Source of the DNA: Balanoglossus misakiensis
Lineage: Eukaryota > Animalia > Hemichordata
Length of the DNA: 64,000 bases
NCBI GenBank assembly: GCA_040954595.2
Contig: CM082596.2
Span: 10,966,454 to 11,030,453, forward strand
Direction of reading: 5' to 3'
Below are positions 26,214 through 51,345 of the stretch, piece by piece (positions within the stretch are counted from its first letter, which is position 1; the number at the start of each line of letters is the position of its first letter). The position numbers and the translations under genes are program-made. The notes under the pieces were generated by a model that made no database searches, was not told where the DNA came from, and worked only from the letters and a program-made list of their open reading frames with translations.

Positions 26214-26230
26214 AATTTCTCACCGTTATT

Positions 26231-29200: not shown

Positions 29201-29803
29201 CGTACCGTCACCCGCAATCACTACCATATCTATCTAAACAGTGATTTCAAGGCAGATCTACGGTGGTGGATTAATTTCATTAGGGTTTATAATGGGGTGT
29301 CTCTCATTAAAGAGTCAGGTTGGTGCCCGCCAGATGAAATATTTTCCTCGGATGCATGCCCAACAGGGGGAGGGGGGCTTTGCGACAACGAGTATTTCCA
29401 CGTGGAGTTCCCTGACTTTGTAAAGGTGGGGGACCCTCACATTAATGCCCTCGAATTACTCACTATTACTATAGCGGCAAAAATTTGGGGTGATAGATGG
29501 TCTGGAAAGAAAATACAGGTCTCTTGCGACAACCAGGCAACAGTTTGGGTCATTAATACCGGTAGAGCTAGGGATAAACTAATGCTGTCTTGCTTGAGGG
29601 AATTATGGCTGGTAGCAGCGATTCACGAGTTTGAGCTACGTGCTGTGCACATCGCAGGCACCGAGAACCGGCTTGCTGATGCGCTCAGTCGCTGGCATCT
29701 TGACCCAAGTTATGAGCAACTCTTCAAATCATCTGTTAATATTTCTCAAATGACCGAGCACCCAGTCGCTGAGGATGACATTCGCTTTCTCAATGAGTGG
29801 TGA
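26231..29803 (+). CDS. Gag-like (coiled coil, CCCH/CCHC-type Zn finger) - reverse transcriptase - RNase H polyprotein
   Basis: Part of the 1209-aa ORF track; the first ATG is at 26231. Zn finger CFKYQSNKCEKEDCAFKHICEAC...HPKIAC. RT motifs RRIVFDLS, KRDLSRAYRQIPV, LPFGLRTA, YLDD, FLGI. RNaseH motifs SDAC, INALEL, CDN, ADALSR. Confidence 0.95.
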   Translation: MENAEQQLLDLGIEPSPVAKKGPATRSKTTTRASTGRKVRVVPRTKLSKVPMASARSKGGKCSKPVKEEDTSSDGEDVRSEKEKLQAEIARLQEQSEVDNLRKQLKEMKLEIEQRSPPAALSGSPRGHDLSQLTLPDLKRMAKEDSQLQWSLPSGSPWLPATGAAGGGEDLQPNQLLAQSGLYTAAQSKAGNVPMKSMRFNTRTDRVRQHVLWPHMFVRARTFSGAPPKFDDMSMAEFVEGNLAIVQLPTLSDTEKQQRLQHLQSLMKDANLFPWDAILKFEGALLSDMESGLRTWANDTADLRELYLLPRIGEIRRDKTADKSKKKDQINVCFKYQSNKCEKEDCAFKHICEACMKLRNNLAKHPKIACPWKDKAFREQESNKLTDSSGKAEVDKSKQDSHDCDSNLIPKLNHRVKSAGTECNINDFYTLMGITDQAVHTCDRSVQTDMEIDISRSLSMCNPEVLRDAIVNPSSISEPVLSIDEPVTCTIANVASEHTGCFDTYVSRDNVDKNLCKTHTVDLIEPDIETDLDKQIPIESLAHTVGDTTEFACEISAHGSSDDMISDDHDVFVSDMFTVENVPNMGPPNPTLVDHSVPDTYPLGNDMQYSELSDTPVGGDVCPPSSWPPASPLDLTEVITVHDIVVESGLPNSQFCRIPVSSNLQIPIWRAELQQYDDKIICDYLQYGWPVYYTASELPYSTVKNHPSAINYSAHVDNWIINEVAAGATAGPFLTNPLATPLSTSPIQTVEKKDSVNRRIVFDLSSPIHHSVNDGIPKGEYLGESFQLQYPSIDDFTAMMTRKGRGCLLFKRDLSRAYRQIPVDPADYHLLGYTWRNLLFFDLTLPFGLRTAALACQRTTNAVSYIYSTKGYDCVNYLDDFGGAETSNKAHKAFAELGDTLDRLGLQEAKHKAVPPSSIMTFLGIQLNSLTMTMEVTPDRLNEIEQELGVWVTKTKATKRELQSLIGKLSFIAKCVKPGRLFLARMLDVLRTVTRNHYHIYLNSDFKADLRWWINFIRVYNGVSLIKESGWCPPDEIFSSDACPTGGGGLCDNEYFHVEFPDFVKVGDPHINALELLTITIAAKIWGDRWSGKKIQVSCDNQATVWVINTGRARDKLMLSCLRELWLVAAIHEFELRAVHIAGTENRLADALSRWHLDPSYEQLFKSSVNISQMTEHPVAEDDIRFLNEW

Positions 29804-30822
29804 CTGATTTTATTTTTATTTCAGATCACTGCCAAACTATCCAAGCCTTAGACGCTCATATCGCTATCTCAATGAGGTCAGCATTAGCGGAAGGAACTCG
29901 TCGGAATTTATCGTCACAGTTGAAGAGTTACTTCCTGTTTTGTCAGTTTTTCAATTTTACTCCTGTTCCAGCATCTGTTCTTACAGTGTGTAGATTTATC
30001 CAGTTTCTTGCTAGATCAGTAACTGCTGCTGGCACCATTCAGAATTATTTGTACGCAATTCGTACCTTGCATAGAATCCATGGCTTCACGCCATTGGCCG
30101 CTGATCAGTATGTTGTCAAATTACTTTTGAAAGGTCTTTCCCGTAGCACTTTCCAGCCAGTGAGGCAGAAATTACCCATCACCCCCCAGTTGTTGCTACA
30201 GTTTTTCGGGCTTCTAGATATGGCTGTTCCATTCGATGTTACTTTGTGGGCATGCCTTTTGATAGGGTTTTTCTCCTTTTTTCGCAAGTCAAATCTTGTT
30301 CCGAAGTCTGCAACCGACTTTGATCCGGCTAAACACCTCTGTAGGGGTAAAGTCATTTCCTCAGATTCTGGCCTTATAATCGGCGTGACTTGGTCAAAAA
30401 CCATTCAGTTTCGCGAACGCTGTTTGACTATTCCACTTGCCCGCATTCCAGGTTCAGTGTTGTGCCCTTTACAGGCATACAATCACATGTGTGAGATCAT
30501 CCCAGCCCCACCCTCTAGCCCAGCATTTGTTTTTCCCAAATGTGGCAAATTGGTCCCCTTGACCCATTCAGGGCTGGTGAAAAGTATCAAATGTTTAGTT
30601 CAGAGGGCAGGCTTTCCTGCTGACATGTACTCGGGTCACAGCCTCCGTCGTGGGGGTGCAACCTTTGCATTCGAAAGTGGGGTCCCTGGGGAGCTTATCA
30701 AACTCCAAGGGGATTGGCAATCCAGCGCGTATCTCCGTTATCTTAACATTCCATTTCAGACTCGTTATCTGGTGTCCTTTCAAATGGGTCAGCATCTTAA
30801 AGACATCTCCGCGTCACACTGA
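29797..30822 (+). CDS. Tyrosine recombinase (retrotransposon YR integrase); true 5' end uncertain, possibly spliced at 29825
   Basis: 341-aa ORF with an N-terminal SAM-like region (TIQNYLYAIRTLH). The catalytic set is present: R (FFRKSNL), K (WSKT), HxxR (HSLRRG), W (GDWQS) and Y (AYLRY). Confidence 0.95.
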   Translation: MVTDFIFISDHCQTIQALDAHIAISMRSALAEGTRRNLSSQLKSYFLFCQFFNFTPVPASVLTVCRFIQFLARSVTAAGTIQNYLYAIRTLHRIHGFTPLAADQYVVKLLLKGLSRSTFQPVRQKLPITPQLLLQFFGLLDMAVPFDVTLWACLLIGFFSFFRKSNLVPKSATDFDPAKHLCRGKVISSDSGLIIGVTWSKTIQFRERCLTIPLARIPGSVLCPLQAYNHMCEIIPAPPSSPAFVFPKCGKLVPLTHSGLVKSIKCLVQRAGFPADMYSGHSLRRGGATFAFESGVPGELIKLQGDWQSSAYLRYLNIPFQTRYLVSFQMGQHLKDISASH

Positions 30823-30866
30823 TTTTACTGTTGCACTAGCAGAGAGGCGGACCGGGTTTGGCAGTG

Positions 30867-30974
30867 GTTGGGCCTGCAAGAGCCCCCAGTTCACGTAAAT
30901 AAATAATGGCTCTTGCCTTCAGCTGCCAAACCTGTGTCCTTGTTTTGTGTGTTAGAGAGATCTCAAGTAATTTA
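30867..30974 (+). repeat. Split direct repeat B1 (108 bp incl. TAATTTA core)
   Basis: Appears identical to 31285-31392. Contains AATAAA (30898-30903) followed by a GT-rich tract. Confidence 0.95.
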
Positions 30975-31136
30975 GGTAACATTGTGATCAACGGCATAAT
31001 GTTACCCAATTAAGCAACTCGAAAAGGGGCGCCCTCAACCTCAAACGAGCCTCAAAAATCCCATAATCCATCACTCACGGCCACTTCAAGGGTTCGGAGC
31101 GTGTCCTGCAGTGCTCGCTCTCTCTGCCTCAATTTC
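30975..31136 (+). repeat. Split direct repeat A2
   Basis: Copy of 26052-26213 directly abutting B1. Confidence 0.95.
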
Positions 31137-31284
31137 CCCACCCGCCCGCCCTCAACAAATAAGATGTGTATTTGCAGATTTACAGTGGTTCTCTGGTCAA
31201 TACTGTACTTCACGATTGTAACCTTTTTCATCCATGTATTTTGCAATGGTCCTTTCATCATTGCGAGTTGTTATTCCCAGTTGT

Positions 31285-31392
31285 GTTGGGCCTGCAAGAG
31301 CCCCCAGTTCACGTAAATAAATAATGGCTCTTGCCTTCAGCTGCCAAACCTGTGTCCTTGTTTTGTGTGTTAGAGAGATCTCAAGTAATTTA
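31285..31392 (+). repeat. Split direct repeat B2 (element 3' end)
   Basis: Copy of B1, with AATAAA at 31316-31321. Ends GATCTCAAG-TAATTTA, then the satellite continues ATTTCTTACATC. Confidence 0.95.
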
Positions 31393-33511
31393 ATTTCTTA
31401 CATCATAAATGGAATTCAAAGAAACGTCACGTAACAGGATATGTATCGTTTCAAGGCTTTGTTTTGGAATAACGAATTCTCTACAAGATTTAAGTGGAAC
31501 AGTCACAGAATGAAAACAAATATGGAAAGAGTTATGTCGGTATGTTGTAAGGGATAGATTAATATTGCAAATAATTTAATTTCTTACATCATAAATGGAA
31601 TTCAAAGAATGGTCACATAACGGGCCATGTTTTACTAAAAAGACTTATGTATAGTTTCAAGGCTTTGTTTTGGAATAATGAATTCTCTCCAAGATTTAAG
31701 TTGAACAGTTACAGAATGAAAACAAATATTCAAATAGTTATGCCAGAATGTTGTAAGGGATAGATTAATATTGCAAATAATTTAATTTCTTACATCATAA
31801 ATGGAATTCAAAGAATGGTCACATAACGGGCCATGTTTTACAAAAAGACTTTTGTATAGTTTCAAGGCTTTGTTTTGGAATAACGAATTCTCTACAGGAT
31901 TTAAGTGGAACAGTCACAGAATGAAAACAAATATGGAAAGAGTTATGCTGGAATGTTGTAAGAGATAGATTAATATTGCAAATAATTTAATTTCTTACAT
32001 CATAAAATGAATTCAACGAATGGTCACATAACAGGATATGTTTTACTAAAAACACTTATGTATAGTTACAAGGCTTTGTTTTGGAATAACGAATTCTCTA
32101 CAAGATTTAAGTGGAACAGTCACAGAATGAAAACAAATATGGAAAGAGTTATGCTGGAATGTTATAAGGGATAGATTAATATTGCAAATAAATATTATTT
32201 CTTACATCATAAAATGAATTCAAAGAATGGTCACATAACAGGATATGTTTTACTAAAAAGACTTATGTTATAGATTCAAGGCTTTGTTTTGGAATAACGA
32301 ATTCTCTACAAGATTTAAGTGGAACAGTCACAGAATGAAAACAAATATGGAAAGAGTTATGCCGGAATGTTGTAAGGGATAGATTAATATTGCAAAAAAT
32401 TTAATTTCTTACATCATAAATGGAATTCAAAGAAACGTCACGTAACAGGATATGTATAGTTTCAAGCCTTTGTTTTGGAGTAACGAATTCTCTACAAGAT
32501 TTAAGTGGAACAGTCACAGAATGGAAACAAATATGGAAAGAGTTATGCTGAAATGTTGTAAGGGATAGATTAATATTGCATACAATTTAATTTCTTACAT
32601 CATAAATGGAATTCAAAGAATGGTCACATAACGGGCCATGTTTTACTAAAAAGACTTATGTATAGTTTCAAGGCTTTGTTTTGGAATAACGAATTCTCTC
32701 CAAGATTTAAGTTGAACAGTTACAGAATGAAAACAAATATTCAAATAGTTATGCCAGAATGTTGTAAGGGATAGATTAATATTGCAAATAATTTAATTTC
32801 TCACATCATAAATGGAATTCAAAGAATGGTCACATAACGGGCCATGTTTTACAAAAAGACTTTTGTATAGTTTCAAGGCTTTGTTTTGGAATAACGAATT
32901 CTCTACAGGATTTAAGTGGAACAGTCACAGAATGAAAACAAATATGGAAAGAGTTATGCTGGAATGTTGTAAGAGATAGATTAATATTGCAAATAATTTA
33001 ATTTCTTACATCATAAAATGAATTCAACGAATGGTCACATAACAGGATATGTTTTACTAAAAACACTTATGTATAGTTACAAGGCTTTGTTTTGGAATAA
33101 CGAATTCTCTACAAGATTTAAGTGGAACAGTCACAGAATGAAAACAAATATGGAAAGAGTTATGCTGGAATGTTATAAGGGATAGATTAATATTGCAAAT
33201 AATTTAATTTCTTACATCATAAAATGAATTCAAAGAATGGTCACATAACAGGATATGTTTTACTAAAAAGACTTATGTTATAGATTCAAGGCTTTGTTTT
33301 GGAATAACGAATTCTCTACAAGATTTAAGTGGAACAGTCACAGAATGAAAACAAATATGGAAAGAGTTATGCCGGAATGTTGTAAGGGATAGATTAATAT
33401 TGCAAAAAATTTAATTTCTTACATCATAAATGGAATTCAAAGAAACGTCACGTAACAGGATATGTATAGTTTCAAGCCTTTGTTTTGGAGTAACGAATTC
33501 TCTACAAGATT
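31386..33511. repeat. Satellite segment (~10 monomers; ~1010-bp 5-mer duplication)
   Basis: Same monomer. Diagnostic variants (TGCCAGAATG, GTAAGAGATAG, AAACACTTATG) recur at ~1010-bp spacing. Confidence 0.98.
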
Positions 33512-33534
33512 CACTGTACCAAATATTGGATTTG
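33512..33534 (+). repeat. CACTA left TIR
   Basis: Reverse complement of 46342-46364 with one mismatch. Confidence 0.95.
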
Positions 33535-33710
33535 ACACACTGTGTCAGGGGTGGGTAAAGCATGGTGATATATTGGGGGGAAACTTTAACCAGGCAGGTC
33601 ACATGAAAGGAAGACTTTATCCTTTGAATTCGGTGACATACATGATAAGATTTGTCACTTTTGACACCTTTTTTTCCAATTTGACATAGACGAAGATGTA
33701 TCTTTTCCTT

Positions 33711-34995
33711 TGGACACAGTAGGCAAAGTCCGGTCTGTGTTTAAAATGATACCCTGGTCACACACAGTGACAAATGTCAGACTTTGACTATTGTGTTAAA
33801 TTATCTAATTTATGCATTGTTAATCACCATCTGTGAAGTTTAGTGCAGGTAATTCTTTTCCAGGGTTGAAACATACTATGCTTTGAATACATGTTTCCTA
33901 TGGGTTGTTGAAGGAAACAGTAGGATCTGTTTCTCCAGCATTTATGACACTGTTTTCAACATGTTTGTGTGGTGGCAATATGTGATTATATGTTGGTATA
34001 CATCATGGGTTGGTAAATGTTATACGTAGTGCTGGGTTTGATACCCTGTTTTGGGGGCGGGTAAATTTTAGGGGGAACTTTATCTAGCCATGGAATATGT
34101 GAGGAATAGCCAATACTTTGAATTGGGAACATACTTGACAACATTGATCACTCTTGACAACTTTACATGGACTGTAACTAAGAAAAAATGTGTGTCTTTG
34201 CATTAACTTTTCCATCTGGACACAGTAGGCAAAGTCCGGTCTGTGTTTAAAATGATACCCTGGTCACACACAGTGACAAATGTCAGCCTTTGACTATTGT
34301 GTTAAATTATCTAATTTATGCATTGTTAATCACCATCTGTGAAGTTTAGTGCAGGTAATTCTTTTCCAGGGTTGAAACATACTATGCTTTGAATACATGT
34401 TTCCTATGGGTTGTTGAAGGAAACAGTAGGATCTGTTTCTCCAGCATTTATGACACTGTTTTCAACATGTTTGTGTGGTGGCAATATGTGATTATATGTT
34501 GGTATACATCATGGGTTGGTAAATGTTATACGTAGTGCTGGGTTTGATACCCTGTTTTGGGGGCGGGTAAATTTTAGGGGGAACTTTATCTAGCCATGGA
34601 ATATGTGAGGAATAGCCAATACTTTGAATTGGGAACATACTTGACAACATTGATCACTCTTGACAACTTTACATGGACTGTAACTAAGAAAAGATGTGTG
34701 TCTTTGCATTAACTTTTCCATCTGGACACAGTAGGCAAAGTCCGGTCTGTGTTTAAAATGATACCCTGGTCACACACAGTGACAAATGTCAGCCTTTGAC
34801 TATTGTGTTAAATTATCTAATTTATGCATTGTTAATCACCATCTGTGAAGTTTAGTGCAGGTAATTCTTTTCCAGGGTTGAAACATACTATGCTTTGAAT
34901 ACATGTTTCCGATGGGTTGTTGAAGGAAACAGTAGGATCTGTTTCTCCAGCATTTATGACACTGTTTTTAATATGCTTGTTGGTGGCAATATGTG
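33711..34995. repeat. 506-bp subterminal tandem repeat (~2.5 copies, plus a diverged partial copy from ~33530)
   Basis: GGACACAGTAGGCAAAGTCCGG starts at 33712, 34218 and 34724. Copies are nearly identical. Confidence 0.95.
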
Positions 34996-36309
34996 TATAT
35001 TTCGCTATGGTTGATAAACATCATGGTTCTTCATGTCATGATGAAAATTAAAACTATGCCCCAAAAACTATCATTTTTGTAAACCATTGTTATGAAAAAT
35101 AAAACACTACAGTAAAGGGCCTTGCCTGTTGATGTGGTACACTTTATCATATAAATTCAAAACTGGTAGCTAAGGGCAGTGTTTGCACAGAGGAGTCTCT
35201 TGAATGCCTTCACTCATTCACACCTCTTCAGTGACAATGCCAGGAGTATATTGACATGAAGCTGTTTGCTCAGCAGTGTTTCAACTGCCAGCCGCCTGAG
35301 TTCATTTTAAGACTCAAACACTGAAAATATTGTATCAGTCAATAATATAACCTACACGGGGTGTTAAATTCATCATGTTTTAAAGTTATGTTGATACCTG
35401 ATCTGCATTGTGATTCACGGGGCAACCAAGAGTAAAGCTTGTCCAAAGTTGACAAAGCAAAAGACCAGACTAAGTGCCAGTTGTAAAATGTGCTTCATTC
35501 CAAGGACCTTGGTGATGAGTCATGATTTGGGGAACGTTCACGCAACCCGTTTTTTTCACTAGAATCACACATGCAATGATATAACCATGAAATTGCAGTG
35601 CAACAACGGCAAATTGTGCTGAAGCATCAGATGTTTTACCCAACATACCAGTAAAGTACTGAGTTTGTACAGCTGTTCGAATGGAAATTCAAAGTTTCAG
35701 TTTCAATTATAACATATGATTTCAAGAGATACTATAGTACAACCCAGCCCACAAGTCTCTATCGAAATTGAACAGATCACAAGAGTCATGCGACCTGTTG
35801 TGCAACTTGCACAAAATCATGTCTTGACTATACAAGCTTCCAGTGTAAATATTGGGCCAGTACTGATCTCCTAAATTCCACTGTGTAATGGCCTCTGAAA
35901 GAAAATGTATGCAAATTGCACAGAATTATCGTGTTCTAGAAATGTAGCACGATGAGGCATCAGAAAGGTTTCTATAAAGTTCAGACCAGCTGTGTTCCAC
36001 AAACAATGCAATTGTTTTCAAACAATGCATATTGTCAATCTTTCTCCATTGGGGCACAAGTCACACCGAGTGCTCAGAACATAATAGCGCACTCGGTGTG
36101 ACCTGTGCACAGGGATGGACCATTCGATTTTGTGAGGGAGAGCTGGAGGATTTTGGAAATAAATGTTCAAAGCTTTTTGCCAGAAAAAAACACTTGTTTG
36201 TGCGGGCGGGGTAAAAAAAATGCTTCCAACAAAGCTTTCAACAAAAGTTGCTGCCACAGATTATGTCTTGGCTTTGAATTTCAGCCTATATCAATACATG
36301 TAATAAATA

Positions 36310-36501
36310 CTGTAAAACACTTTTTTTCGCGAGTCTAAATTTTTGCAATATCGAGAGAGGCCAGTTATGCGAGTATTAATTTTCGCACTTTCACACATTG
36401 TTCTTTCACAACTATATGTATGCGAGTCTGAATTTTCGTGTTTTTTGGCTCTTGCCTATTTAGCGTAAATTTAATGCTCGCGAAAATAAAGTGTTTTACA
36501 G
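36310..36501. mobile_element. 192-bp MITE nested in the CACTA element, TA-flanked (Tc1/mariner-type)
   Basis: TA|CTGTAAAACACTTTTTTTCGCGAG ... CTCGCGAAAATAAAGTGTTTTACAG|TA gives a ~25-bp TIR with one indel. Confidence 0.8.
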
Positions 36502-36827
36502 TATATCACTACATGTACTTTCAAAACCCATTGTTTGCCATGCAGCAACTTGACCTCATGGAGAAGTGCTACTTGCCATAGAGTACATACACACATACAC
36601 ACATACATACCGGTAGTTACATGCATGCATAAATACCAGTACATGTACATACAACAGATACCATCACACTACTCTGATTATCATTCAGTCATTTATTACA
36701 ATAAAATAATCCTGATATATATATACAACATATGCACTTCTTAGTACTAATCCTTTGCCTTCCAATTTGGAAAAAAGGGTAAAACATTTACAATTACTAG
36801 TCACCTAGGCCATGTCAAGCTTACATT

Positions 36828-39794
36828 TTACAAATACAGTTTATCCGTATGAGGTATGACACACATTACTTGTTCTCTATTTATTGTGTCAAAACCTGCA
36901 ATAAATTTACCATGAATTTGTTGCACTGGTATGAATGATGCTGGACCAGACATTTCATAAGCATCCTTACACCAAACCTCCACTGGTTCACCATAGTGGT
37001 TTATATTGTGGTGTTGCTGAAACCACCGAACCTTTGCTGACACAAACAATTCTTGTTTACCATTAATAGTTAAATACTGAGAAAAATAGTATTCAACAAT
37101 GCCTGGTCTAAGCAAGCCATTATTACAATCAATTTTGCCTCCAAGTGTACACCAACGAGCTAGGATAAGAGAATATCTCCTGTATCGAGAGTCTTCAGAG
37201 CCCAAAACATCTTGAGCGAATTTAACAGCTGCAGATTTCTTTATATATCCAGTTACAGTATGGAGAACAGATTCTTCAAGAAATATTTTGTACATCTCTT
37301 TTAGGTTGGCCATCCAGGATGAATCTAGGAGGTCCATAGAAATGGGCCCCACCATGTGAAATAAATGCACTGTTTGTAGGGCAACAGACAAATTGAAATC
37401 AGCAAGTCCCAATCGCAATCTGCCTAACAACACAGCTGATTTGTCCTCACCACATCTTTGTGCTTCTTGCCTGTTAAGAGGGAAAAACGCATTAAAATCC
37501 TGATAGTCTTTTGGTTTTGGCATGTTATGCAGTAACTGTTCATTTAGAAATTTCCGCATTATTTGTATTTCAATTGACCTGTGATTAGCACAGTATTCAG
37601 ATAGTATGCCATTGTATCTTTCATATGGGAAGGTCCAGAAAGAATACACTGGTCCATAATCTAGAATACAGTCAACCAGATGGGTGTGGTAATGCATATT
37701 TGGTGTCACCTTTTCTGCTCCATAAATCTTCTCAAACTGACGACAAAATTGCATTAGGTAAGAATGACCTTTAGCAATATTACTCAAAGTTATAACTGGA
37801 GAGCAAAGAAAATGGCAGGCTAACACAAAAAGGCGCCACATTTCCATATCTTTCCTTGGTAAAATTCCTTTCAAAGCAAAAACCGAGAAAAGAGTGATCC
37901 AATGCTTCCACTGGTCAGCAGTGAAACCACCAAAACTTGTTGCAATTTTCAAAGGCATTCTTCCCATGTTTGATGGAACTTTGGTAATATCAATCTTTTG
38001 CTGTATAGTTTCAAGTTGACCTTTAGAAATTTTGGGTTTGTTTTTGTCTAGCCACACATTCTTCATAATGTGTTTACCAGTTCCCAAGAATAAATTGTGC
38101 AGTGGGTCAATAACATGAAACCTAACACAGTCAAAATAGACCAGCTTCATTAGAGATGTGTATCGTACACCATATTTTGACACTAATGCATCCCGATCTG
38201 CTTTTGACATTTGCCCATCAGTCTCTTCAGCTTGTTTTCGATGTTGTGCATTGTGCCTGCTATTTGATGGCTCAAAACCACCGAAGTTAATCTTGTCAGC
38301 AAAGTTCCCAACGATAAATTCTTTTTCACATTTGGAGCAACCTTTCTTAGCCATATGCCCAACAAAACCACACAGCTTTCTTGTTGCTGGTACATCAGAA
38401 ACAACATTAATCAGTGCAGCATGGAATGTACAAATGACATGTTTGCCAAATTCAATGATTGGGCATTTTAAACCTTCCTCCCATAATAATTTCATTTCTT
38501 CTACAAAAGGGTTAAGAAATGAATTAATATTCAATGAAGGCTCTCTTGGACCAGGTAACAACCCAACAAGAATTACATTTTCCTTTTTGTACCGCTCAGC
38601 ACGTGGTAAGTTGAGAATGACCAAGTAAAGTGCTCCAACACTGTATGGAAGGTGTTTGAATGGGCAGAACCAATCTAAATTTAGTTGCAATGCGTAATTT
38701 TTAGAAGAACTTAAGAATGGCCTGCCACTTACATTCTGAAACTCTTTCCAAATTCTTCCATCATAAATGTCAGACAGGACACCAGGGGATTGTTTTCTGT
38801 CACGCCAAAGTTCACATTTTGGAACAAAATCATGTCGTTTCACAAGATCTGACAAGGATTGTAAAACAGATTTGTAACAATAAACTTTAAATGGATACAA
38901 ACGTTTCTTATTTCCCTGGAGTTCTACTTCTTTCAGTAAAGGTGTCCCACATGGTTGTCTATGCTTTTTCTGCCGATGTGCAGGAAACTCTATAAATTTG
39001 CATTTGATTGGAATGTTTTGACCACCCACCCGCTTGTAGCAATCCTCAAACTTGTAAAGTGAACTGCACTTTTGACAAATAACATACTTGATGAATCTGT
39101 CTTCATTTAAGCCAATGATTTGTTTCAGTTTGTACAAACTAACAGGCAAGAGGGCAGAGAATGCAGCAACACATGGGGACATTTGTCCTAACACAAGGAA
39201 CAGTGTCCTAAAAAATCCAAGTATCAACATCATACAAGTTTCAGTAACACTGTGAAAATACCACAGGTAAGACAAAAAAAGACAAAACCAATTGGCTAAA
39301 GTCAACAAACGTGGGTCAGTTGACTCTTCTACAAGTACAGGCACAAACAGATTTGATGAGTCCAATCCTTCTTTGAAATCCCTATTGAGTTCATTCTCAT
39401 CCACAGTGTCCCAAATCTCAAAATTACAATGATCATTCATAAAGTCCTTCTCTTCTTGCTCACTAGGTTGATCAAAGTACATACGATCTTCTTCGTCCAA
39501 AGTTTCTATAAAATGTTCAAAGTTCTTGTGTGGTTCTCCATTGCTTGTATTCTCTTTGAAGTGGATATTAGGGCAGTCATCAAGACAGCTGCTGTGGCCA
39601 GCCTCAAGTTCAGTGTCATCAGTGTCTATCCATGTGTTATTACTGAACAACAATCTATCTTCTTCTCGTTCAATGTCATCAACTGTAGTCCAGGTGTTTG
39701 AAACTTCATTGAAGTATTGTTTGCGATGCCGCTTGTAAACTTTCGTTATCACCTCCTCATTACAGTGGGGGCAGTATTTTCTTTTTGAAGCCAT
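36828..39794 (-). CDS. CACTA/EnSpm DDE transposase (TnpD/Tnp2-like), 988 aa, uninterrupted
   Basis: Motifs DIYDG, LNLDWFCPF, LNLPRAERY, GPREP, SDVPATRKLCGF-GH-(C..C), IDPLHNLFLG, TADQWK, TPNMH...HL, YGP and FPYERYNG. N-terminal CPHC..H and internal CQKC..CGTPL Zn-binding motifs. Confidence 0.93.
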   Translation of the reverse strand: MASKRKYCPHCNEEVITKVYKRHRKQYFNEVSNTWTTVDDIEREEDRLLFSNNTWIDTDDTELEAGHSSCLDDCPNIHFKENTSNGEPHKNFEHFIETLDEEDRMYFDQPSEQEEKDFMNDHCNFEIWDTVDENELNRDFKEGLDSSNLFVPVLVEESTDPRLLTLANWFCLFLSYLWYFHSVTETCMMLILGFFRTLFLVLGQMSPCVAAFSALLPVSLYKLKQIIGLNEDRFIKYVICQKCSSLYKFEDCYKRVGGQNIPIKCKFIEFPAHRQKKHRQPCGTPLLKEVELQGNKKRLYPFKVYCYKSVLQSLSDLVKRHDFVPKCELWRDRKQSPGVLSDIYDGRIWKEFQNVSGRPFLSSSKNYALQLNLDWFCPFKHLPYSVGALYLVILNLPRAERYKKENVILVGLLPGPREPSLNINSFLNPFVEEMKLLWEEGLKCPIIEFGKHVICTFHAALINVVSDVPATRKLCGFVGHMAKKGCSKCEKEFIVGNFADKINFGGFEPSNSRHNAQHRKQAEETDGQMSKADRDALVSKYGVRYTSLMKLVYFDCVRFHVIDPLHNLFLGTGKHIMKNVWLDKNKPKISKGQLETIQQKIDITKVPSNMGRMPLKIATSFGGFTADQWKHWITLFSVFALKGILPRKDMEMWRLFVLACHFLCSPVITLSNIAKGHSYLMQFCRQFEKIYGAEKVTPNMHYHTHLVDCILDYGPVYSFWTFPYERYNGILSEYCANHRSIEIQIMRKFLNEQLLHNMPKPKDYQDFNAFFPLNRQEAQRCGEDKSAVLLGRLRLGLADFNLSVALQTVHLFHMVGPISMDLLDSSWMANLKEMYKIFLEESVLHTVTGYIKKSAAVKFAQDVLGSEDSRYRRYSLILARWCTLGGKIDCNNGLLRPGIVEYYFSQYLTINGKQELFVSAKVRWFQQHHNINHYGEPVEVWCKDAYEMSGPASFIPVQQIHGKFIAGFDTINREQVMCVIPHTDKLYL

Positions 39795-41486
39795 TTGTTC
39801 CCTTAGAAGAGAAAGGAGACATAAGTTAATAAGTAATTTTTATCAACAGACGACATCAAATTGGCCATCTTCATGATATCAACACGGTGCTACTTTTCCA
39901 TACTTCTTTTGGAATGAGTCTTATCCGTTTGCAATTTGTCCATTCATAGTGACTGTAGTGGTATCAGATAACCTGTCCACAATGTTTTCAACTATTCAAA
40001 GAAGCCCTGAGATAGTTTCAATGTGAATGTGCTTCAACAGAGCAGCCACCTGTTTAAAGTGAGAAGCAGCCACCCCTTTGTCACCTCTGTGGTCACTTAA
40101 AATAATATACACTGTTATGCCAAGGAAACTGAATGTGGATATTTTTTAAAACTTTGTGCAAAGGTAACTGGCCACTAAACAGGTGCTCTGTGAAAATGAA
40201 TGTTGAAGGTAGCATATCTGCCAATGAACCACCTATCAATAATAACACTAAAACACTTTTGGTAACATGGCCTAAAACTAATGGCTTCTCACAGAAATTT
40301 TAACGATGTCAACTGTGTTAGTTTTCTATAATTTCAGATATTCACATCCAAGGGAACTGTGTATGTGAAATCACAAGTCCACTGTGAGCTCCAAACATGA
40401 TGTAAACAACAAGGGTCTTTTACATGCCCATTCCCACAACACCTAAATCACTGGCACTAGCAAGTGGGCATGTACAGCAAAGCCAGCCCAGTCGACTTTT
40501 TCTTTTTGAAGTTTATCTGTCAGCTTATCTTAATTTGGACATGAAGCTGTTCACATATACCTGTATAAACCTACACATTACTGGAGAAGGCTTATTTACA
40601 AGTGTTTACCAATGGTCTGTGATTGTTGACATACTCATAGTTGGCTTTGTTTGTTGGGCAGATTATGTAAATAGTACACTATAGTCAAGGTCCAGTAGAC
40701 ATGTGTGCAAATGTCCACTACCTTGTTTGAAGTGGGAATTGTCAGATTTCTTGTGTGTTCGGAAAAACTGCAAATTTTTCTGTCTTACAATTTTTCGAAC
40801 TGACACAGTAGACAGTGTTTGAAAATGCTCCTATGAAAGAGATTTTGAATAGAAATCAAGACGGTGACACAGACACTATACCTTGTATACATTAGAATTA
40901 AATTCTCTGTGACATTTACATGATTCACTGATACATCAATTAACAGTTACTACATGTACTACCAATATTTATATGTCTTACAATTTAAAAACAGCAATAT
41001 ATGTTTTCCATTGATTGATTCACATCAACTTGAGTAGATCAGTGTTCTCTCCAGAGGGTTTTAGTGTATCAGGGCCGATATCCTATAATATTTCCTGATA
41101 TGCTATCAATCAGGCCAATATGCTATCCAATATCCTATTGTAAATGGCATTGCCTATTCACACGGTCTAGTGATTCAAATTTTAAAGAAAAGATTCAGCT
41201 GTGAAATACATCTGGAATAACCTGGCAGACTTCCTGTCACACACATCACCAACTCAGGTGTTTTATTGTGAAATGTTAATAAGCTTGTCAAAAACAATTA
41301 ACAAAAGGCTAACAATCACTCCTTTGTCATTAACAGAGCAATGAATGTTTAAAGGTCTTAAAATTTCCTTGGCCATTTGTGTTTTAAACTGTAAATAAAC
41401 GTTATGACCTGTAGATGTATGATAACTAACAATTATTTATGAATGTACAGACCTCAAAAAGATAAAGAAACTATTCTGCAACTTAC

Positions 41487-41541
41487 CTTAAGGTGACAGG
41501 GAGCATGCAAGCAAAACAGTAGACAGCCTGGCAGAATGAAC
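41487..41541 (-). other. Predicted non-coding 5' exon of the transposase transcript
   Basis: The minus strand reads TTCTTTTTCTTATGTAG|GTTCATT...CACCTTAAG|GTAAGT, with consensus acceptor and donor. Confidence 0.55.
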
Positions 41542-42282
41542 CTACATAAGAAAAAGAATTCAGTTAAGTTAACAGGATGAAATCATTTCAGTGAGGATTG
41601 TGACAATCTCTCTGAATTGACAGTTTCTCACTGGACTGAATTGTGTTAGTGGAAATTGATCTGTGTATCGAGGTGCAGTAAAACATGGCGCAGAGGTAGC
41701 AACGAGTGAACAACGCTTCCCAATGACCTCTTCTAGCCTCAAAATGTTGATTCGGTCAATTCAGCTTTAATAAGAACCGCACGATAGTCTATCCCGGTCC
41801 CGAAATACCGGTAGACCTACTGTGTTATTTAGTCAAAAACTAGACCTCGGATAAATGATCAATACCTCACAATAAGCTTGGGTGGCCAGATTCACAGAAA
41901 AACGTTCCCAAGAACCCAAACAGAAACGCGATTTCAAAGGCAACGAAGATGATCGTTTAACGTTAACATTTTAAACGTTGTTTATTCATGCTATGGCAGC
42001 AAGCAGCATGCCTGGTTTGCGCCACAAAACTTTGCTTTACACTAGTAACACGTAAAGGTACATGGAATTGACACTACCGATTTTAATTAGGCTACAAGTA
42101 GTTCCGTAACTCGAGGTTTTTCCCGGTGTTGGCCCAGCTACAGCGACAGTACGCTACAGCTGGTTTAAACATGGTCCCGGGACCGACTGTAGTTTGATTT
42201 GAATGATGATGATTGTTGATTTGATGACTCATATGACGCATGCTATAGTGTTTCCCACTTATAAACGGTTTTAAAAACTTAC

Positions 42283-42731
42283 CTTAAAGAACACACAGCG
42301 AGTTTCTTCTTTGCGCAGATGTCAGAACGAGATCAGCCAAAAGCACAGACAGAAGAAATACTTCGTGTAACATTACCGGAAGTACACCATCTTGTCATCC
42401 TTGGTCGCAAAATACCGGAATGCTTATTTTTACATTAATATTTACATCGTATATTTAAAAAAAAAACAATTAAAATATAGTAAATGCTTATAAAACATTT
42501 TTTTTTGTATATAAAGTTAAATCCTATTTGTGTTCGTTAAAATGATATATTAAACGTACATTGTGAAAGGAATTGTGGATGGTGTTGAACGAGGATATTA
42601 CCCATAAGTCATCAGTCTGTTGCTATATAAACAGCTCCAAGGCAGCGGTGGATTTAAATCCGCCGTGTGCTGCCAGCTGATTATACTGTTACTCCGAATA
42701 CTCTTTGATTTTCGATCCTGCTTCTAAAATC
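42283..42731. promoter_or_regulatory. Putative bidirectional promoter region between transposase and accessory gene
   Basis: Minus-strand donor AAG|GTAAGT at 42283, CCGGAAGT (ETS-like) at 42376, an AT-rich centre and TATATAAA at 42624-42631 upstream of ATG 42732. Confidence 0.5.
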
Positions 42732-44799
42732 ATGTCATCGTCACAGCATACAGTCACCCCAACGATTTCTACACAGTACGACACACCAGATTCTTTCAAT
42801 TTGTTACGTCCGCGCCGAGAATTACATATGTTCGATGACCTCAACTCCAGTTCAGACCGTGATGCTGAGGGACAAGTCACTATCAGTAAAGAAGAGTTTC
42901 AGCGTTTGCTGAAAAATCAAGAAGAAATGCTGAAAAAGCAACATCTTCTGGAAGAAAAACTCGCCCTGGAGTGTAGGACAAGAAGGAAGATCAGACCGTC
43001 ACGAAAAGTCAAGGTATGTACATAATGAAACCTCGAACTACTGTGAACTGTAGCTATGTGTAAACACCGGGAACACACTGACCGGTACAGGCTCGGAAGT
43101 TTGCCCTTTGCAGCCGTAAAAATACAATTTTCCGGTTCATTTTGCTGTCTCCGTACATTTAACAAGATGAAATAGTCACTTGTGTACAATATTCATTGTG
43201 ACCAATAGTAGCCCATTGACCTTGGTTGACCTTAAACATTGTATACTTTATGATATAGTAATCGATAAAACTTTTTTTTCCAGGCTGTTGTTCACACTTT
43301 ATACAAAGGTCTCGTTGAAGCTGGAAAGAAGTGGGACACAACAAAAGCGTAAGTGTCCAAACAATTTTTACTTGTGACCAGAAAGAGTTGCAATTATAGA
43401 GCGGAAAAAGGTGTACTTTTTAAGATGGTGATAAATATATGTCCTCATTTGGAGCTCACAGTGGTATCAACCATCTCATGTACAGGCTACAGCTTTGTTG
43501 GTTAAGAATTTTGTGAAGTTTTTAGGAAGCAAAGTCACAGGAGCAGGATTGTAGTTTGCTTGACCAATGTGAATTACTGATTCTGCAATACTACTGCTTG
43601 CTATGCTGACCTTTAGTATGCAAATTTTGACAACCCCTGGGAATGTTTATGTTGAGTAAACTTCTTTGGTGACCTTTATTATGCAAATTGTGCACCCCAG
43701 GGTGTATACTCCAGTGAGTATTGTAAAGCTCAGAAGCAAATATGACTGTTTGTAAGATTCATATGCATAGGCATTATTGTATTGCAATGTATGTCATTTA
43801 TTCAACTTATGGAATAATGAGTTCTTTTCTTCTTTGACAGCTTTGGACATCAGGTCAACATCCACATAAATAGTGAAATGAAGAATGGTTTGAAGAACCA
43901 GTTGACTGAAGATGATGCAGTTCTCCAAGGTTAGTTATGTGTGTATATACTCACAGATGATTCAATCAAAGACAAAGATTTAATGCAATCTTTAGTTGTT
44001 CTCTTCTTTGTTGATGATCAAAACAACACATATCTGTTGTGATTATTAAAAGAGTTCAGACAACACCTTTGAAAGTGTATAGTCAATGATACTTTCAGCA
44101 CATCTTTCTTTAGTGATTCCATTGCAATAGTAACCTCTTTTATATTCTCAAATTTTTACAGTTGCCATGAAAACATACTTCATGACAAAGAGGAAAGAAA
44201 CCAAGAGATTGTCTACTGGAAAAATGGCTGCATTTAAGAAGAAGCAAGCCCGGAGGCAGAGAAAGCAGCAGGTATACATTAATTCAAATTGTACTCCGAA
44301 TTAATTCAAATTGTACTCCGAATTTACCTGGGGCACCCTTTTAAATATGTTGATAGGGTTGAAGTATAATGAAAGAACCATGTTGTTCCTGATGATGTTG
44401 TGTTGTACACTGTTTTTCATTTTTATATTTCAGAAATTGACAAGAAGAAAAGAAAATTTAGAAAAGTGCACGTCAATGGGCGATACAGAGAAAAAACTGG
44501 TGCAAGTTCTATTAACCAACACAGACTACATATCCAGTGAGGACACTGACTCGTGTTGGTCAGCCGATTCAGAAGATGACGACGTCTGTGATGTGGCTCA
44601 GAACAGAAAGGCAAAGAAACTACGAAGGAGGCCATTGACCTGGCGCTCGAACAGGGTACAAACTATTTTTGATATGCTGGACAAGCGCCACGAGAAAAGA
44701 CTACAGAAGATGGGTGGGGGGTTTGTTCATACCAGACAAGATGGTGCTCCATCTTTCCGGGGTGCCCCAGATGATGCACCAAGTTGGGCTGCTTTGTAA
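42732..44799 (+). CDS. Predicted 5-exon accessory gene (303 aa), C14orf93/DUF4616-like; exons 42732-43013, 43284-43348, 43841-43929, 44162-44271, 44434-44799
   Basis: All four introns are GT..AG with pyrimidine tracts and compatible phases (0, 2, 1, 0), giving a 912-nt open CDS. AATAAA lies at 44936. The protein has a coiled coil, YFMTKRKE, RRQRKQQKLTRR, ISSEDTD, RPLTWRS and GAPSFRGAP..APSWA. Confidence 0.8.
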
Positions 44800-45054
44800 A
44801 TCATAAATTTTGAATTTTCTTTAACTTATTATATGTATACAACTAATTTTAATCCTTTTAACTATTTAATTCCCTTTCAGTAAATTTTTACGCATGTTTT
44901 TCTTTACATTTTACTCTACATTTTTTTCCATTTGCAATAAATATAATGAAACAGAATGATTTATCTGACTGTCTTTGCATAACTTTTGGAGTGGTGTGAT
45001 TACGAGTGTCAGCTATGTGCCTTTGTCTGTCTGATGAAAGTCTCTGAAAAATTT

Positions 45055-45996
45055 ACACATGTCACCACCAATTGCCAAGGCGATATTTGAGGGTACTATG
45101 GCCACCTGCACACACCTGTGACCCCCTGTGTTTATGTAATGAAAGCCACTGCTGTAGAGGGTAGACAAATGTATACATGTCACCACCAATTGCCAAGGCG
45201 ATATTTGAGGGTACTATGGCTACCTGCACACACCTGTGACCCCCTGTGTTTATGTAATGAAAGCCACTGCTGTAGAGGGTAGACAAATGTATACATATCA
45301 CCACCAATTGCCAAGGCGATATTTGAGGGTACTATGGCCACCTGCACACACCTGTGACCCCCTGTGTTTATGTAATGAAAGCCACTGCTGTAGAGGGTAG
45401 ACAAATGTATACATGTCACCACCAATTGCCAAGGCGATATTTGAGGGTACTATGGCCACCTGCACACACCTGTGACCCCCTGTGTTTATGTAATGAAAGC
45501 CACTGCTGTAGAGGGTAGACAAATGTATACATGTCACCACCAATTGCCAAGGCGATATTTGAGGGTACTATGGCCACCTGCACACACCTGTGACCCCCTG
45601 TGTTTATGTAATGAAAGCCACTGCTGTAGAGGGTAGACAAATGTATACATATCACCACCAATTGCCAAGGCGATATTTGAGAGTACTATGGCCACCTGCA
45701 CACACCTGTGACCCCCTGTGTTTATGTAATGAAAGCTACTGCTGTAGAGGGTAGACAAATGTATACATGTCACCACCAATTGCCAAGGCGATATTTGAGG
45801 GTACTATGGCCACCTGCACACACCTGTGACCCCCTGTGTTTATGTAATGAAAGCCACTGCTGTAGAGGGTAGAAAAATGTACACATGTCACCACCAATTG
45901 CCAAGGCGATATTTGTGGGTACAATGGCCACCTGCACACACCTGTGACCCCCTGTGTTTATGTAATGAAAGCCACTGCTGTAGAGGGTAGACAAAT
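45055..45996. repeat. 118-bp subterminal minisatellite (~8 copies)
   Basis: TCACCACCAATTGCCAAGGCGATATTTGAGGG...GGGTAGACAAATGTATACATG recurs every 118 bp. The ORF track repeats at the same period. Confidence 0.97.
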
Positions 45997-46341
45997 TTAT
46001 AACTTTCCTCTACATTTGTTCATACAGTATTTATGGGTTGTAGAGCCACCTTTCCCCTATATTTTACCTCTAGTATAATAGTTGGTTTGGTCTGATTTGC
46101 CTAGTACATACAGCACCTGAAGTATATGCCTATACAACTGGTAGACAAAGCAGGGATACAGTGCAGCAAATGATTATATTTTCAAAAGTTTTACACATCT
46201 ATCAAAGTAAGGAATTTGCCTTATACACCATGTATGGCAAAGGTCTCTGTAAAGTTGCAAATGTGAACAAAGTTGTAGGAGGTATCACGTGGTTAAACAT
46301 GGAACTTTAGCGCAATTTACCAGGTACTTTGCCTACCCATG

Positions 46342-46364
46342 CAAATCCAATTTTTGGTACAGTG
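46342..46364 (-). repeat. CACTA right TIR
   Basis: CAAATCCAATTTTTGGTACAGTG followed by TSD ATT. Confidence 0.95.
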
Positions 46365-49300
46365 ATTTAAGTGGAACAGTCACAGAATGGAAACAAATAT
46401 GGAAAGAGTTATGCTGAAATGTTGTAAGGGATAGATTAATATTGCATACAATTTAATTTCTTACATCATAAATGGAATTCAAATAATGGTCACATAACAG
46501 GATATGTTTTACTAAAAATACTTATGTATAGGTTCAATAATTTGTGTTGAAATACCAAATTCTCTACAAGATTTAAGTGGAACAGTCACAGAATGAAAAC
46601 AAATATGGAAAGAGTTATGCCGGAATGTTGTAAGGTATAGATTAATATTGCAAATAATTTAATTTCTTATATCATAAATGGAATTCAAAGAATGGTCACA
46701 TAACGGGCCATGTTTTAGTAAAAAGACTTATGTATAGTTTCAAGGCTTTGTTTTGGAATAACGAATTCTCTCCAAGATTTAAGTTGAACAGTTACAGAAT
46801 GAAAACAAATATTCAAATAGTTACGCCAGAATGTTGTAAGGGATAGTTTAATATTGCAAATAATTTAATTTCTTACATCGTAAATGGAATTCAAAGAATG
46901 GTCACATAACGGGCCATGTTTTTCAAAAAGACTTAATATGTATAGTTTCAAGGCTTTGTTTTGGAATAACGAATTCTCTACAGGATTTAAGTGGAACAGT
47001 CACAGAATGAAAACAAATATGGAAAGAGTTATGCTGGAATGTTGTAAGGGATAGATTAATATTGCAAATAATTTAATTTCTTACATCATAAAATGAATTC
47101 AAAGAATGGTCACATAACAGGATATGTTTTACTAAAAAGACTTATGTATAGTTACAAGGCTTTGTTTTGGAATAACGAATTCTCTACAAGATTTAAGTGG
47201 AACAGTCACAGAATGAAAACAAATATGGAAAGAGTTATGCTGGAATGTTATAAGGGATAGATTAATATTGCAAATAATTTAATTTCTTACATCATAAAAT
47301 AAATTCAAAGAATGGTCACATAACAGGATATGTTTTACTAAAAAGACTTATGTTATAGTTTCAAGGCTTTGTTTTGGAATAACGAATTCTCTACAAGATT
47401 TAAGTGGAACAGTCAAAGAATGAAAACAAATATGGAAAGAGTTATGCCGGAATGTTGTAAGGAATAGATTAATATTGCAAATAATTTAATTTCTTACATC
47501 ATAAATGGAATTCAAAGAAACGTCACGTAACAGGATATGTATCGTTTCAAGGCTTTGTTTTGGAATAACGAATTCTCTACAAGATTTAAGTGGAACAGTC
47601 ACAGAATGAAAACAAATATGGAAAGAGTTATGCTGGAATGTTATAAGGGATAGATTAATATTGCAAATAATTTAATTTCTTACATCATAAAATGAATTCA
47701 AAGAATGGTCACATAACAGGATATGTTTTACTAAAAAGACTTATGTTATAGATTCAAGGCTTTGTTTTGGAATAACGAATTCTCTACAAGATTTAAGTGG
47801 AACAGTCACAGAATGAAAACAAATATGGAAAGAGTTATGCCGGAATGTTGTAAGGGATAGATTAATATTGCAAAAAAATTAATTTCTTACATCATAAATG
47901 GAATTCAAAGAAACGTCACGTAACAGGATATGTATCGTTTCAAGGCTTTGTTTTGGAATAACGAATTCTCTACAAGATTTAAGTGGAACAGTCACAGAAT
48001 GAAAACAAATATGGAAAGAGTTATGCTGGAATGTTATAAGGGATAGATTAATATTGCAAATAATTTAATTTCTTACATCATAAAATGAATTCAAAGAATG
48101 GTCACATAACAGGATATGTTTTACTAAAAAGACTTATGTTATAGATTCAAGGCTTTGTTTTGGAATAACGAATTCTCTACAAGATTTAAGTGGAACAGTC
48201 ACAGAATGAAAACAAATATGGAAAGAGTTATGCCGGAATGTTGTAAGGGATAGATTAATATTGCAAAAAAATTAATTTCTTACATCATAAATGGAATTCA
48301 AAGAAACGTCACGTAACAGGATATGTATCGTTTCAAGGCTTTGTTTTGGAATAACGAATTCTCTACAAGATTTAAGTGGAACAGGCACAGAATGAAAACA
48401 AATATGGAAAGAGTTATGCTGGAATGTTATAAGGGATAGATTAATATTGCAAATAATTTAATTTCTTACATCATAAAATGAATTCAAAGAATGGTCACAT
48501 AACAGGATATGTTTTACTAAAAAGACTTATGTTATAGATTCAAGGCTTTGTTTTGGAATAACGAATTCTCTACAAGATTTAAGTGGAACAGTCACAGAAT
48601 GAAAACAAATATGGAAAGAGTTATGCTGGAATGTTGTAAGGGATAGATTAATATTGCAAAAAATTTAATTTCTTACATCATAAATGGAATTCAAAGACAG
48701 GTCACGTAACAGGATATGTATAGTTTCAAGCCTTTGTTTTGGAGTAACGAATTCTCTACAAGATTTAAGTGGAACAGTCACAGAATGAAAACAAATATGG
48801 AAAGAGTTATGCTGAAATGTTGTAAGGGATAGATTAATATTGCATACAATTTAATTTCTTACATCATAAATGGAATTCAAATAATGGTCACATAACAGGA
48901 TATGTTTTACTAAAAAGACTTATGTATAGGTTCAAGAATTTGTGTTGAAATACCAAATTCTCTACAACATTTAAGTGGAACAGTCACAGAATGAAAACAA
49001 ATATAGAAAGAGTTATGCCTGAATGTTGTAAGGGATAGATTAATATTGCAAATAATTTAATTTCTTATATCATCAATGGAATTCAAAGAATTGTCACATA
49101 ACGGGCCATGTTTTAGTAAAAAGACGTATGTATAGTTTCAAGGCTTTGTTTTGGAATAACGAATTCTCTCCAAGATTTAAGTTGAACAGTTACAGAATGA
49201 AAACAAATATTCAAATAGTTATGTTGGAATGTTGTAAGGGATAGATTAATATTGCAAATAATTTAATTTCTTACATCATAAAATAAATTCAAAGAATGGT

Positions 49301-50999: not shown

Positions 51000-51345
51000 A
51001 GGGACAAAGTCTCTCTCCAGCTGCCCCTTTTCCATTAATTATGTTTGATACAAGACACTGGTTATGTTAATGTAAATGTGGATATATAGTGAATCAATGA
51101 TCAACCACACAAAACTTCCATCCCACTTGTATGATATGAGAGTAAAAACTCGCCCAAAATGAATAAATGGTAAAGAACGATTATTCATTCTGGCGAGTTT
51201 TTTCACTCTCCTGTCTATAAGAGGGATGGAAGTTGTGTGTCGTTGAACGTTCATTCACTATATATCCACATGTAGAATAACAAACGGTGTCTTGTATCAA
51301 TATAATTAATGGAAAAAAGGGCAGCGAGAGACAGACTTTGTCCCT
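51000..51345. mobile_element. 346-bp fold-back MITE with AGGG...CCCT ends (Kolobok-like), no TSD
   Basis: AGGGACAAAGTCT...AGACTTTGTCCCT. The two halves are imperfect inverted repeats almost to the centre (~51170). TTAA is present on the left flank only. Confidence 0.85.

What the first reader, a model, noticed from the sequence alone, without database searches (positions are those of the whole stretch)
42732..44799. Hidden 5-exon CACTA accessory gene resembling vertebrate C14orf93 (DUF4616)
Seen: exons mostly missed by the ORF track splice into an intact 303-aa protein: coiled coil ...RKVK|AVVHTLYKGLVEAGKKWDTTKA|FGHQVN...VLQV|AMKTYFMTKRKETK...RRQRKQQ|KLTRR...DYISSEDTD...RPLTWRSNRVQTIFDMLD...RQDGAPSFRGAP. 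From memory, not a search, the C14orf93 C-terminal region has the same ordered motifs (YFLTKRRE, basic stretch, MSDEED, RPPRFR...LD, R..GPPS.R). Inference: the element is a two-component system (transposase plus a TnpA-analogous nuclear protein), and host C14orf93 may be a domesticated CACTA accessory gene. It could also act as an anti-silencing or targeting factor in heterochromatin.
Basis: partly seen in the sequence, partly recalled or inferred. Interest (0 to 1): 0.82.

Follow-up and report, generated by a model that had tools for sequence, protein, structure and literature searches.

The report
Transposon helper gene related to C14orf93
An intact cut-and-paste transposon carries a second, five-exon gene whose relatives sit beside the same kind of transposase in other genomes; it likely encodes the element's DNA-binding helper and is likely a distant relative of the unexplained human gene C14orf93, which would then be a tamed transposon gene.

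Summary
Five GT-AG exons (42732-44799) give an open 303-aa protein inside a 12,853-bp CACTA element with 22-bp inverted ends and a 3-bp target duplication, head-to-head with an intact transposase. An annotated Ptychodera flava protein is 62% identical across all four junctions, and two distant relatives have the same four introns in the same alignment columns and phases. The gene travels with CACTA transposases: 13 of 16 copies in five assemblies lie within 12 kb of one (about 2-3% expected), some inside CACT-ended elements. The C14orf93 link is indirect: no exon of this gene hits DUF4616, but one transposase-linked relative does (E 2.5e-5, 24 bits, under the 27-bit cut-off), and the ESM Atlas ranks a DUF4616 cluster first. 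No vertebrate sequence could be compared, so domestication is inferred (about 0.6). A DNA-binding helper role is predicted, not shown; anti-silencing has no support of its own. Splicing was not seen in RNA. The scan noted two-gene animal CACTA elements and the domestication idea before, with other partners (BEN/BEND5-like, SAMD3-like, CIDE-N), but not this family.

The parts
33509..33511 (+). left copy of the 3-bp target site duplication (ATT)
   Evidence: only a 3-bp overlap restores the satellite unit: 136 empty sites, 0 for overlaps of 0, 1, 2 or 4
33512..33533 (+). left terminal inverted repeat, begins CACTG
   Evidence: 21 of 22 bases match the right end
33703..35014 (.). left subterminal repeats, 506-bp period, about 2.6 copies
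36828..39794 (-). CACTA/EnSpm transposase, single open frame of 988 aa
   Evidence: PF02992 E 1.3e-22; 60% identical to a Saccoglossus and 74% (551 aa) to a Ptychodera protein
41512..42731 (.). CpG-rich stretch between the two divergent genes, likely a two-way promoter; TATAAA at 42626
   Evidence: CpG observed/expected 0.86-1.17 in 41512-43011 against 0.1-0.5 in most other windows of the element; promoter role is inference
42732..43013 (+). accessory gene exon 1: disordered start, predicted coiled-coil helix, basic patch
   Evidence: helix H80-106 in the model of homolog P0004
43284..43348 (+). exon 2 (65 nt): first helix of the predicted three-helix bundle
43841..43929 (+). exon 3 (89 nt): second helix
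44162..44271 (+). exon 4 (110 nt): third helix running into a long K/R-rich helix
44434..44799 (+). exon 5 (121 aa + stop): the most conserved module; the part whose relatives match DUF4616 profile positions 389-479
   Evidence: 61 relatives at E <= 0.001; model pLDDT 81.4
44936..44941 (+). AATAAA, likely polyadenylation signal
   Evidence: role is inference
45049..46001 (.). right subterminal array, 118 bp x 8.1, 97% matches
46343..46364 (-). right terminal inverted repeat
46365..46367 (+). right copy of the target site duplication (ATT)

Best explanation
This is an intact two-gene CACTA/EnSpm transposon whose spliced second gene belongs to an old family that sits beside CACTA transposases in other genomes, likely encodes the element's non-catalytic, DNA-binding helper, and is likely a distant relative of the C-terminal part of vertebrate C14orf93 (DUF4616). 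Shown: the element, the exon structure, the family, its linkage to the transposase and the shared four-intron layout. Predicted: a coiled coil, a three-helix bundle, a long basic helix and a compact C-terminal module. Inferred: both genes are read outward from the CpG-rich stretch between them; the helper oligomerises through the coil, grips the element's own subterminal repeats with the bundle and basic helix, and uses the conserved C-terminal module to bring in the transposase or a host factor, doing the job that TnpA does in plant elements although it is a separate gene of another family. Inferred: C14orf93 arose when a copy of such a helper gene was fixed in a vertebrate ancestor and gained a new N-terminal half.
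For: Element and exons. Linkage: P. flava transposase XP_070549686.1 and helper XP_070549687.1 are consecutive accessions on contigs of the same length, 2,630,333 bp; a profile of exon 5 finds the gene in 11 of 20 transposase loci, 10 of the 12 with long flanks, and in 0 shuffled loci; reciprocally 13 of 16 matches in five assemblies (52.4 Mb) lie within 12 kb of a transposase, against 1.6-3.1% of bases, and 13 of 19 strong transposase places have the gene; CACT-ended inverted repeats enclose both genes in 5 of 16 loci, with a 3-bp duplication in 4. Sponge copies on different scaffolds are 98-99.6% identical. Introns: the genes in L037 and L044 have phases 0, 2, 1, 0 with junctions in the same four alignment columns as the window gene; blind exon chaining with free phases gave the full pattern in 5 of 11 other loci. 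DUF4616: in a search of five assemblies the model's three best hits (E 1.5e-4, 24.1 bits) are the three copies of the L037 gene, 636 bp from a transposase; that exon hits DUF4616 alone among 24,736 families at E 2.5e-5 and matches the exon-5 profile at 94% probability; the best score in 1,179 prokaryote genomes was 16.5 bits; the ESM Atlas ranks a DUF4616 cluster first for P0001 by features (0.93, 197 shared) and matches it by structure (TM 0.58/0.59, 203 residues). Helper role: pI 9.8 with K/R-rich stretches; conserved columns are mostly S, W, R, P and G with two acidic columns and no Cys/His cluster; no homology to the transposase. Mouse C14orf93 is found in the nucleus (PMC10163356, passages).
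Confidence: 0.6

Rival explanations
1. The gene is a real CACTA companion and a DUF4616 relative, but it acts on chromatin or transcription (anti-silencing or self-activation, like VANC or the regulatory side of TnpA) and is not part of the cutting complex.
For: The stretch between the genes is CpG-rich while most of the element is CpG-depleted; the element sits in a satellite array; Arabidopsis TnpA activates and demethylates its own element ends (bioRxiv 10.64898/2026.08.24.746577, passages); RTFC overexpression lowers its own gene's expression (PMC5322522, passage); some transposase places lack the gene.
Against: No chromatin-reader or enzyme domain was found in 117 family members scanned against Pfam; two unrelated elements sit in the same satellite, so the site says nothing about this protein; CpG-rich promoters are common.
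Confidence: 0.2
2. The family is a CACTA helper, but the likeness to C14orf93 is chance: a basic helix, an acidic serine run and a short aromatic-basic motif recur in unrelated nuclear proteins.
For: All DUF4616 scores are under the cut-off; the window protein and its close relatives have no hit; composition-driven weak hits were common in the same scans.
Against: The family was named before any search; the DUF4616 model picks out the L037 gene from 52.4 Mb and nothing as strong from 1,179 prokaryote genomes; two different branches (P0053, L037) hit the same profile stretch; features and structure in the Atlas point to the same family.
Confidence: 0.15
3. The kinship is real but the direction is reversed: an old host gene of the C14orf93 family was captured by CACTA elements and is carried as cargo.
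For: CACTA elements are known to capture host genes (recalled; Pack-CACTA) and to carry varied accessory genes (bioRxiv 10.1101/2025.02.11.637652 section 8); no rooted tree with vertebrate sequences could be built.
Against: The gene is kept intact, with its introns, beside transposases only 32-49% identical to the window's, which passive cargo would not be; 13 of 16 copies are transposase-linked and two more lie at a contig start on the side where the transposase would be; named homologs in an acorn worm and a sponge are multi-copy.
Confidence: 0.05

Closest known systems
Plant En/Spm (CACTA) with TnpD transposase and TnpA
   Same: CACT-type inverted ends, 3-bp duplication, Transposase_21 domain, subterminal repeats, a second non-catalytic protein. 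Both proteins are needed for transposition in maize (PMC1636069 and bioRxiv 10.64898/2026.08.24.746577, passages).
   Different: Here the second protein comes from a separate, mostly head-to-head gene with four conserved introns; it has one predicted three-helix bundle rather than TnpA's two tandem ones, shows no homology to its transposase and gave no TnpA-type Pfam hit.
Animal CACTA elements of the SmTRC1/TRC type (PMC1636069, passages)
   Same: Animal Transposase_21 elements with spliced products that lack the transposase domain.
   Different: Their extra proteins are splice variants reported as not conserved between species; this one is a separate gene conserved from sponges to acorn worms.
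C14orf93 / RTFC / mouse 4931414P19Rik (Pfam DUF4616, PF15394)
   Same: Relatives of exon 5 match profile positions 389-479 below the cut-off; basic, with nuclear localisation reported for the mouse protein (PMC10163356, passages).
   Different: About 540 aa with a predicted signal peptide and reported secretion; a single host gene; the window protein is 303 aa and has no direct hit.
PIF/Harbinger two-gene elements and their co-domesticated genes (HARBI1 with a Myb/MADF-type partner; recalled, HARBI1 also in PMC5753468 passages)
   Same: Transposase plus a separate small DNA-binding partner, with host genes derived from such elements.
   Different: Another superfamily; no Myb/MADF Pfam hit here; only the partner, not the transposase, would have been kept by the host.
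Fungal DUF8263 (PF26792) and Mucoromycota DUF4616-bearing clusters (ESM Atlas)
   Same: Nearest named clusters by features and predicted structure.
   Different: Their link to transposons was not tested here; no sequences were returned.

Membership tests
CACTA/EnSpm superfamily | short terminal inverted repeats beginning CACTA/CACTG | tested here: met
   22 bp, CACTG, 21 of 22 match
CACTA/EnSpm superfamily | 3-bp (or 2-bp) target site duplication | tested here: met
   ATT; empty site 136 times
CACTA/EnSpm superfamily | Transposase_21 (tnp2) transposase | tested here: met
   PF02992 80.5 bits, cut-off 28.6
CACTA/EnSpm superfamily | subterminal repeats at both ends | tested here: met
   506-bp and 118-bp arrays
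CACTA/EnSpm superfamily | intact DDE catalytic triad and present-day mobility | not tested
   open 988-aa frame; the triad was not mapped and no second copy of this element was available
TnpA (plant Spm accessory protein) | splice product of, or derived from, the transposase gene | tested here: not met
   opposite strand, 2.9 kb away; profile-profile probability 0.1% against the transposase family
TnpA (plant Spm accessory protein) | two tandem tri-helical HTH motifs | tested here: inconclusive
TnpA (plant Spm accessory protein) | binds subterminal repeats and is needed for transposition | not testable with these tools
   needs binding and excision assays
DUF4616 / C14orf93 | PF15394 score at or above 27 bits for the window protein | tested here: not met
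   0 of 5 exons scanned singly; full-length homologs P0079, P0093, P0001, P0004 no hit; the joined protein itself was not scanned
DUF4616 / C14orf93 | a member of the same protein family reaches the PF15394 cut-off | tested here: inconclusive
   best 24.0-24.1 bits, E 2.5e-5, profile 389-479; background maximum 16.5 bits in 1,179 genomes
DUF4616 / C14orf93 | predicted structure like DUF4616-bearing proteins | tested here: met
   for homolog P0001: TM 0.58/0.59 over 203 residues to a cluster whose aligned part is named PF15394; cluster is fungal, 29% of members carry the family
DUF4616 / C14orf93 | direct alignment to vertebrate C14orf93, and shared intron positions | not testable with these tools
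   no vertebrate member was returned or 37

The most novel reading that the evidence does not exclude
Human C14orf93 (RTFC), a conserved nuclear and secreted protein of unknown molecular function linked to familial thyroid cancer and cortical development, is a domesticated CACTA helper gene; its transposon-borne relatives are still mobile from sponges to acorn worms and supply a tractable system for finding what its C-terminal half binds.
Probability: 0.6. Interest if true: 0.82.

Novelty: new variant of a known kind. Interest (0 to 1): 0.72.

Why it matters
It defines a conserved helper-gene family of animal CACTA elements, which a recent survey describes as usually carrying the DNA-binding part fused to the transposase (bioRxiv 10.64898/2026.08.24.746577, section 6). 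If the kinship holds, it gives an origin and a testable biochemical activity (DNA or transposase-like partner binding by the C-terminal half) for C14orf93, for which published domain searches found nothing (PMC10163356, PMC5322522, passages), and it would add CACTA to the transposon groups that have supplied human genes: the passages seen of the Repbase review PMC5753468 name none from this group.

Full report
Setting. The window is mostly a 206-bp satellite broken by three insertions: a tyrosine-recombinase retrotransposon at 26052-31.4 kb, a 346-bp element at 51000-51345, and the element in question. That element runs from 33512 to 46364 (12,853 bp), has 22-bp inverted ends beginning CACTG (21 of 22 bases match) and a 3-bp duplication, ATT; only that overlap restores the satellite unit, which occurs empty 136 times. 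It holds a 988-aa transposase frame on the minus strand (PF02992, E 1.3e-22), subterminal arrays of 506 and 118 bp and, head-to-head with the transposase across a CpG-rich stretch, the gene of the finding. The nearest named relatives of both genes come from the acorn worms Ptychodera flava and Saccoglossus kowalevskii, so the host is likely a related animal; no genome is held for it.

The observation. The five exons join through GT-AG introns of phases 0, 2, 1, 0 into 303 codons without a stop; all eight splice sites rank in the top 8 of 134 donors and 145 acceptors under a simple matrix. A search of 1.84 billion representatives with exon 5 returned 61 relatives. An annotated P. flava protein of 304 aa is 62% identical over all five exons with no gap at a junction, and others from Saccoglossus, a sea anemone, an abalone and sponges align over part or all of the length. 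The gene model therefore rests on homology; it has not been seen in RNA.

Is the gene part of the transposon? First, a P. flava transposase (XP_070549686.1) and a P. flava copy of the gene (XP_070549687.1) have consecutive accessions and contigs of the same length, which I read as an adjacent pair. Second, a scan of prokaryote genome assemblies with the transposase alignment returned 18 loci. They have spliceosomal introns, satellites and only 15-37% long-ORF cover in the seven checked, so I take them as host DNA mis-binned into those assemblies. A profile of exon 5 found the gene in 11 of the 20 transposase loci then held, in 10 of the 12 with long flanks, and in none after shuffling. The reciprocal search over five whole assemblies (52.4 Mb) gave 16 matches: 13 lie within 12 kb of a transposase (9 head-to-head, 3 tail-to-tail, 1 tandem), two lie about 3 kb from a contig start on the side where a head-to-head transposase would be, and one is unlinked; 1.6% of the bases (3.1% if only half is host DNA) lie that close to a transposase match; 13 of 19 strong transposase places have the gene. 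These 13 come from four assemblies and are about 10 distinct elements. CACT-ended inverted repeats enclose both genes in 5 of 16 loci, four of them (three insertions) with a 3-bp duplication. Sponge copies on different scaffolds are 98-99.6% identical, as expected of a mobile gene, although none of the six sponge transposase gene numbers listed is adjacent to a listed helper gene number. With phases left free, blind exon chaining recovered the window's full intron pattern in 5 of 11 loci, the last three introns in 4 more, and failed in 2. The pairing is thus old: the transposases involved are 32-49% identical to the window's.

The C14orf93 link. Direct evidence is lacking: no window exon and no close homolog hits DUF4616, and no vertebrate member was returned by any search. 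Indirect evidence is consistent. (a) One of 61 relatives, P0053, hits profile positions 411-454 at E 0.011, as does one member of its cluster; about 50 families (my count) had weak hits in those scans, several of them composition-driven. (b) The ESM Atlas ranks a DUF4616-named cluster first for the full-length homolog P0001 and matches it by structure (TM 0.58/0.59, 203 residues); the cluster is fungal and 29% of its members carry the family; fungal DUF8263 clusters also appear. (c) Run over the five assemblies, the DUF4616 model's three best hits (24.1 bits, E 1.5e-4, positions 389-477) are three near-identical copies of one gene, 636 bp from a CACTA transposase, that the exon-5 profile had found separately. 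Its last exon hits DUF4616 and no other family at E 2.5e-5 (24 bits, cut-off 27). The best score in 1,179 prokaryote genomes was 16.5 bits. (d) That gene (L037) is a true relative of the window gene: it matches the exon-5 profile at 94% probability and a full-length profile at 56.8 bits against -13.8 reversed, and its four introns have phases 0, 2, 1, 0 and fall in the same four columns of a protein-only alignment; so do those of L044, a gene 51% identical to P0053 in exon 5 and enclosed with a transposase by 30-bp CACTA ends. Against: L044 itself has no DUF4616 hit, no inverted ends were found around the L037 pair, and the direct L037-window alignment is barely above shuffles. I put the kinship at about 0.8 and, given it, domestication at about 0.75, because the family is transposon-borne and multi-copy wherever context was seen, whereas C14orf93 is a single vertebrate gene (recalled). 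The transposases beside L037 and L044 group with amphioxus, fish and Nematostella transposases (SH-aLRT 94, not starred), a lead on where the donor lay.

What is known. Searches of the paper library found 41 papers with C14orf93 (30 listed, none on transposons by title or abstract start), none with DUF4616, none with C14orf93 and transposon, and none of 15 listed with both a gene alias and a transposon term; searches listed no paper that I found to describe this family (listings only, apart from those named here). Seen: passages and section 6 of bioRxiv 10.64898/2026.08.24.746577 (TnpA-like proteins restricted to flowering plants, DNA-binding part usually fused to the transposase in animals; 'various accessory proteins' noted; no mention of C14orf93; supplements closed and could hold this family); abstract and section 8 of bioRxiv 10.1101/2025.02.11.637652; abstract and a term search of PMC12730594; passages of PMC1636069, PMC5753468, PMC10163356, PMC5322522 and PMC3161784. 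Repbase reports and subscription journals were not searchable. Earlier notes of this scan describe two-gene animal CACTA elements with BEN, SAMD3-like or CIDE-N partners and suggest domestication for BEND5, but none names C14orf93 and none matched these sequences.

Verdict. A real, intact two-gene CACTA element; a new helper-gene family with firm linkage and gene-structure evidence; a probable but unproven tie to C14orf93. New variant of a known kind; interest 0.72.

Noticed in passing
window 26041-31392: Apparently intact Ngaro/DIRS-type retrotransposon in the satellite: 1,189-aa gag-RT frame, overlapping tyrosine-recombinase frame, and split direct repeats (173 bp, 98%; 108 bp, 100%) in A1...B1 A2...B2 order.
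   Followed up: partly
window 51000-51345: 346-bp element with long inverted ends inserted within about four bases of the satellite position used by the CACTA element, in another unit; no clean target duplication seen.
   Followed up: no
window 36307-36504 and 36054-36108: A 198-bp CpG-rich miniature element with 21-bp inverted ends, and a 20-bp-arm hairpin, nested in the CACTA element downstream of the transposase.
   Followed up: no
window 44278-44324: Perfect 22-bp tandem duplication inside intron 4.
   Followed up: no
L003-L020, G001-G005: Several prokaryote genome assemblies (up to 20.3 Mb) hold contigs with spliceosomal introns, satellites and CACTA elements, likely mis-binned host DNA.
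   Followed up: partly
L007:850-4670; L041-L043; L044: The helper gene is usually head-to-head with the transposase but tail-to-tail in two lineages and tandem in one, so the order has been rearranged more than once.
   Followed up: partly
L042:5467-17815 against L041 and L043: The DUF4616-matching pair lies in a unit of at least 8 kb present three times at 99% or more, with a sharp left edge in different flanks, a 189-bp tandem array on the other side and no inverted ends found.
   Followed up: partly
ESM Atlas rows: Many fungal clusters (Basidiomycota DUF8263, Mucoromycota) resemble this family; they may be helper genes of fungal CACTA-type elements.
   Followed up: no
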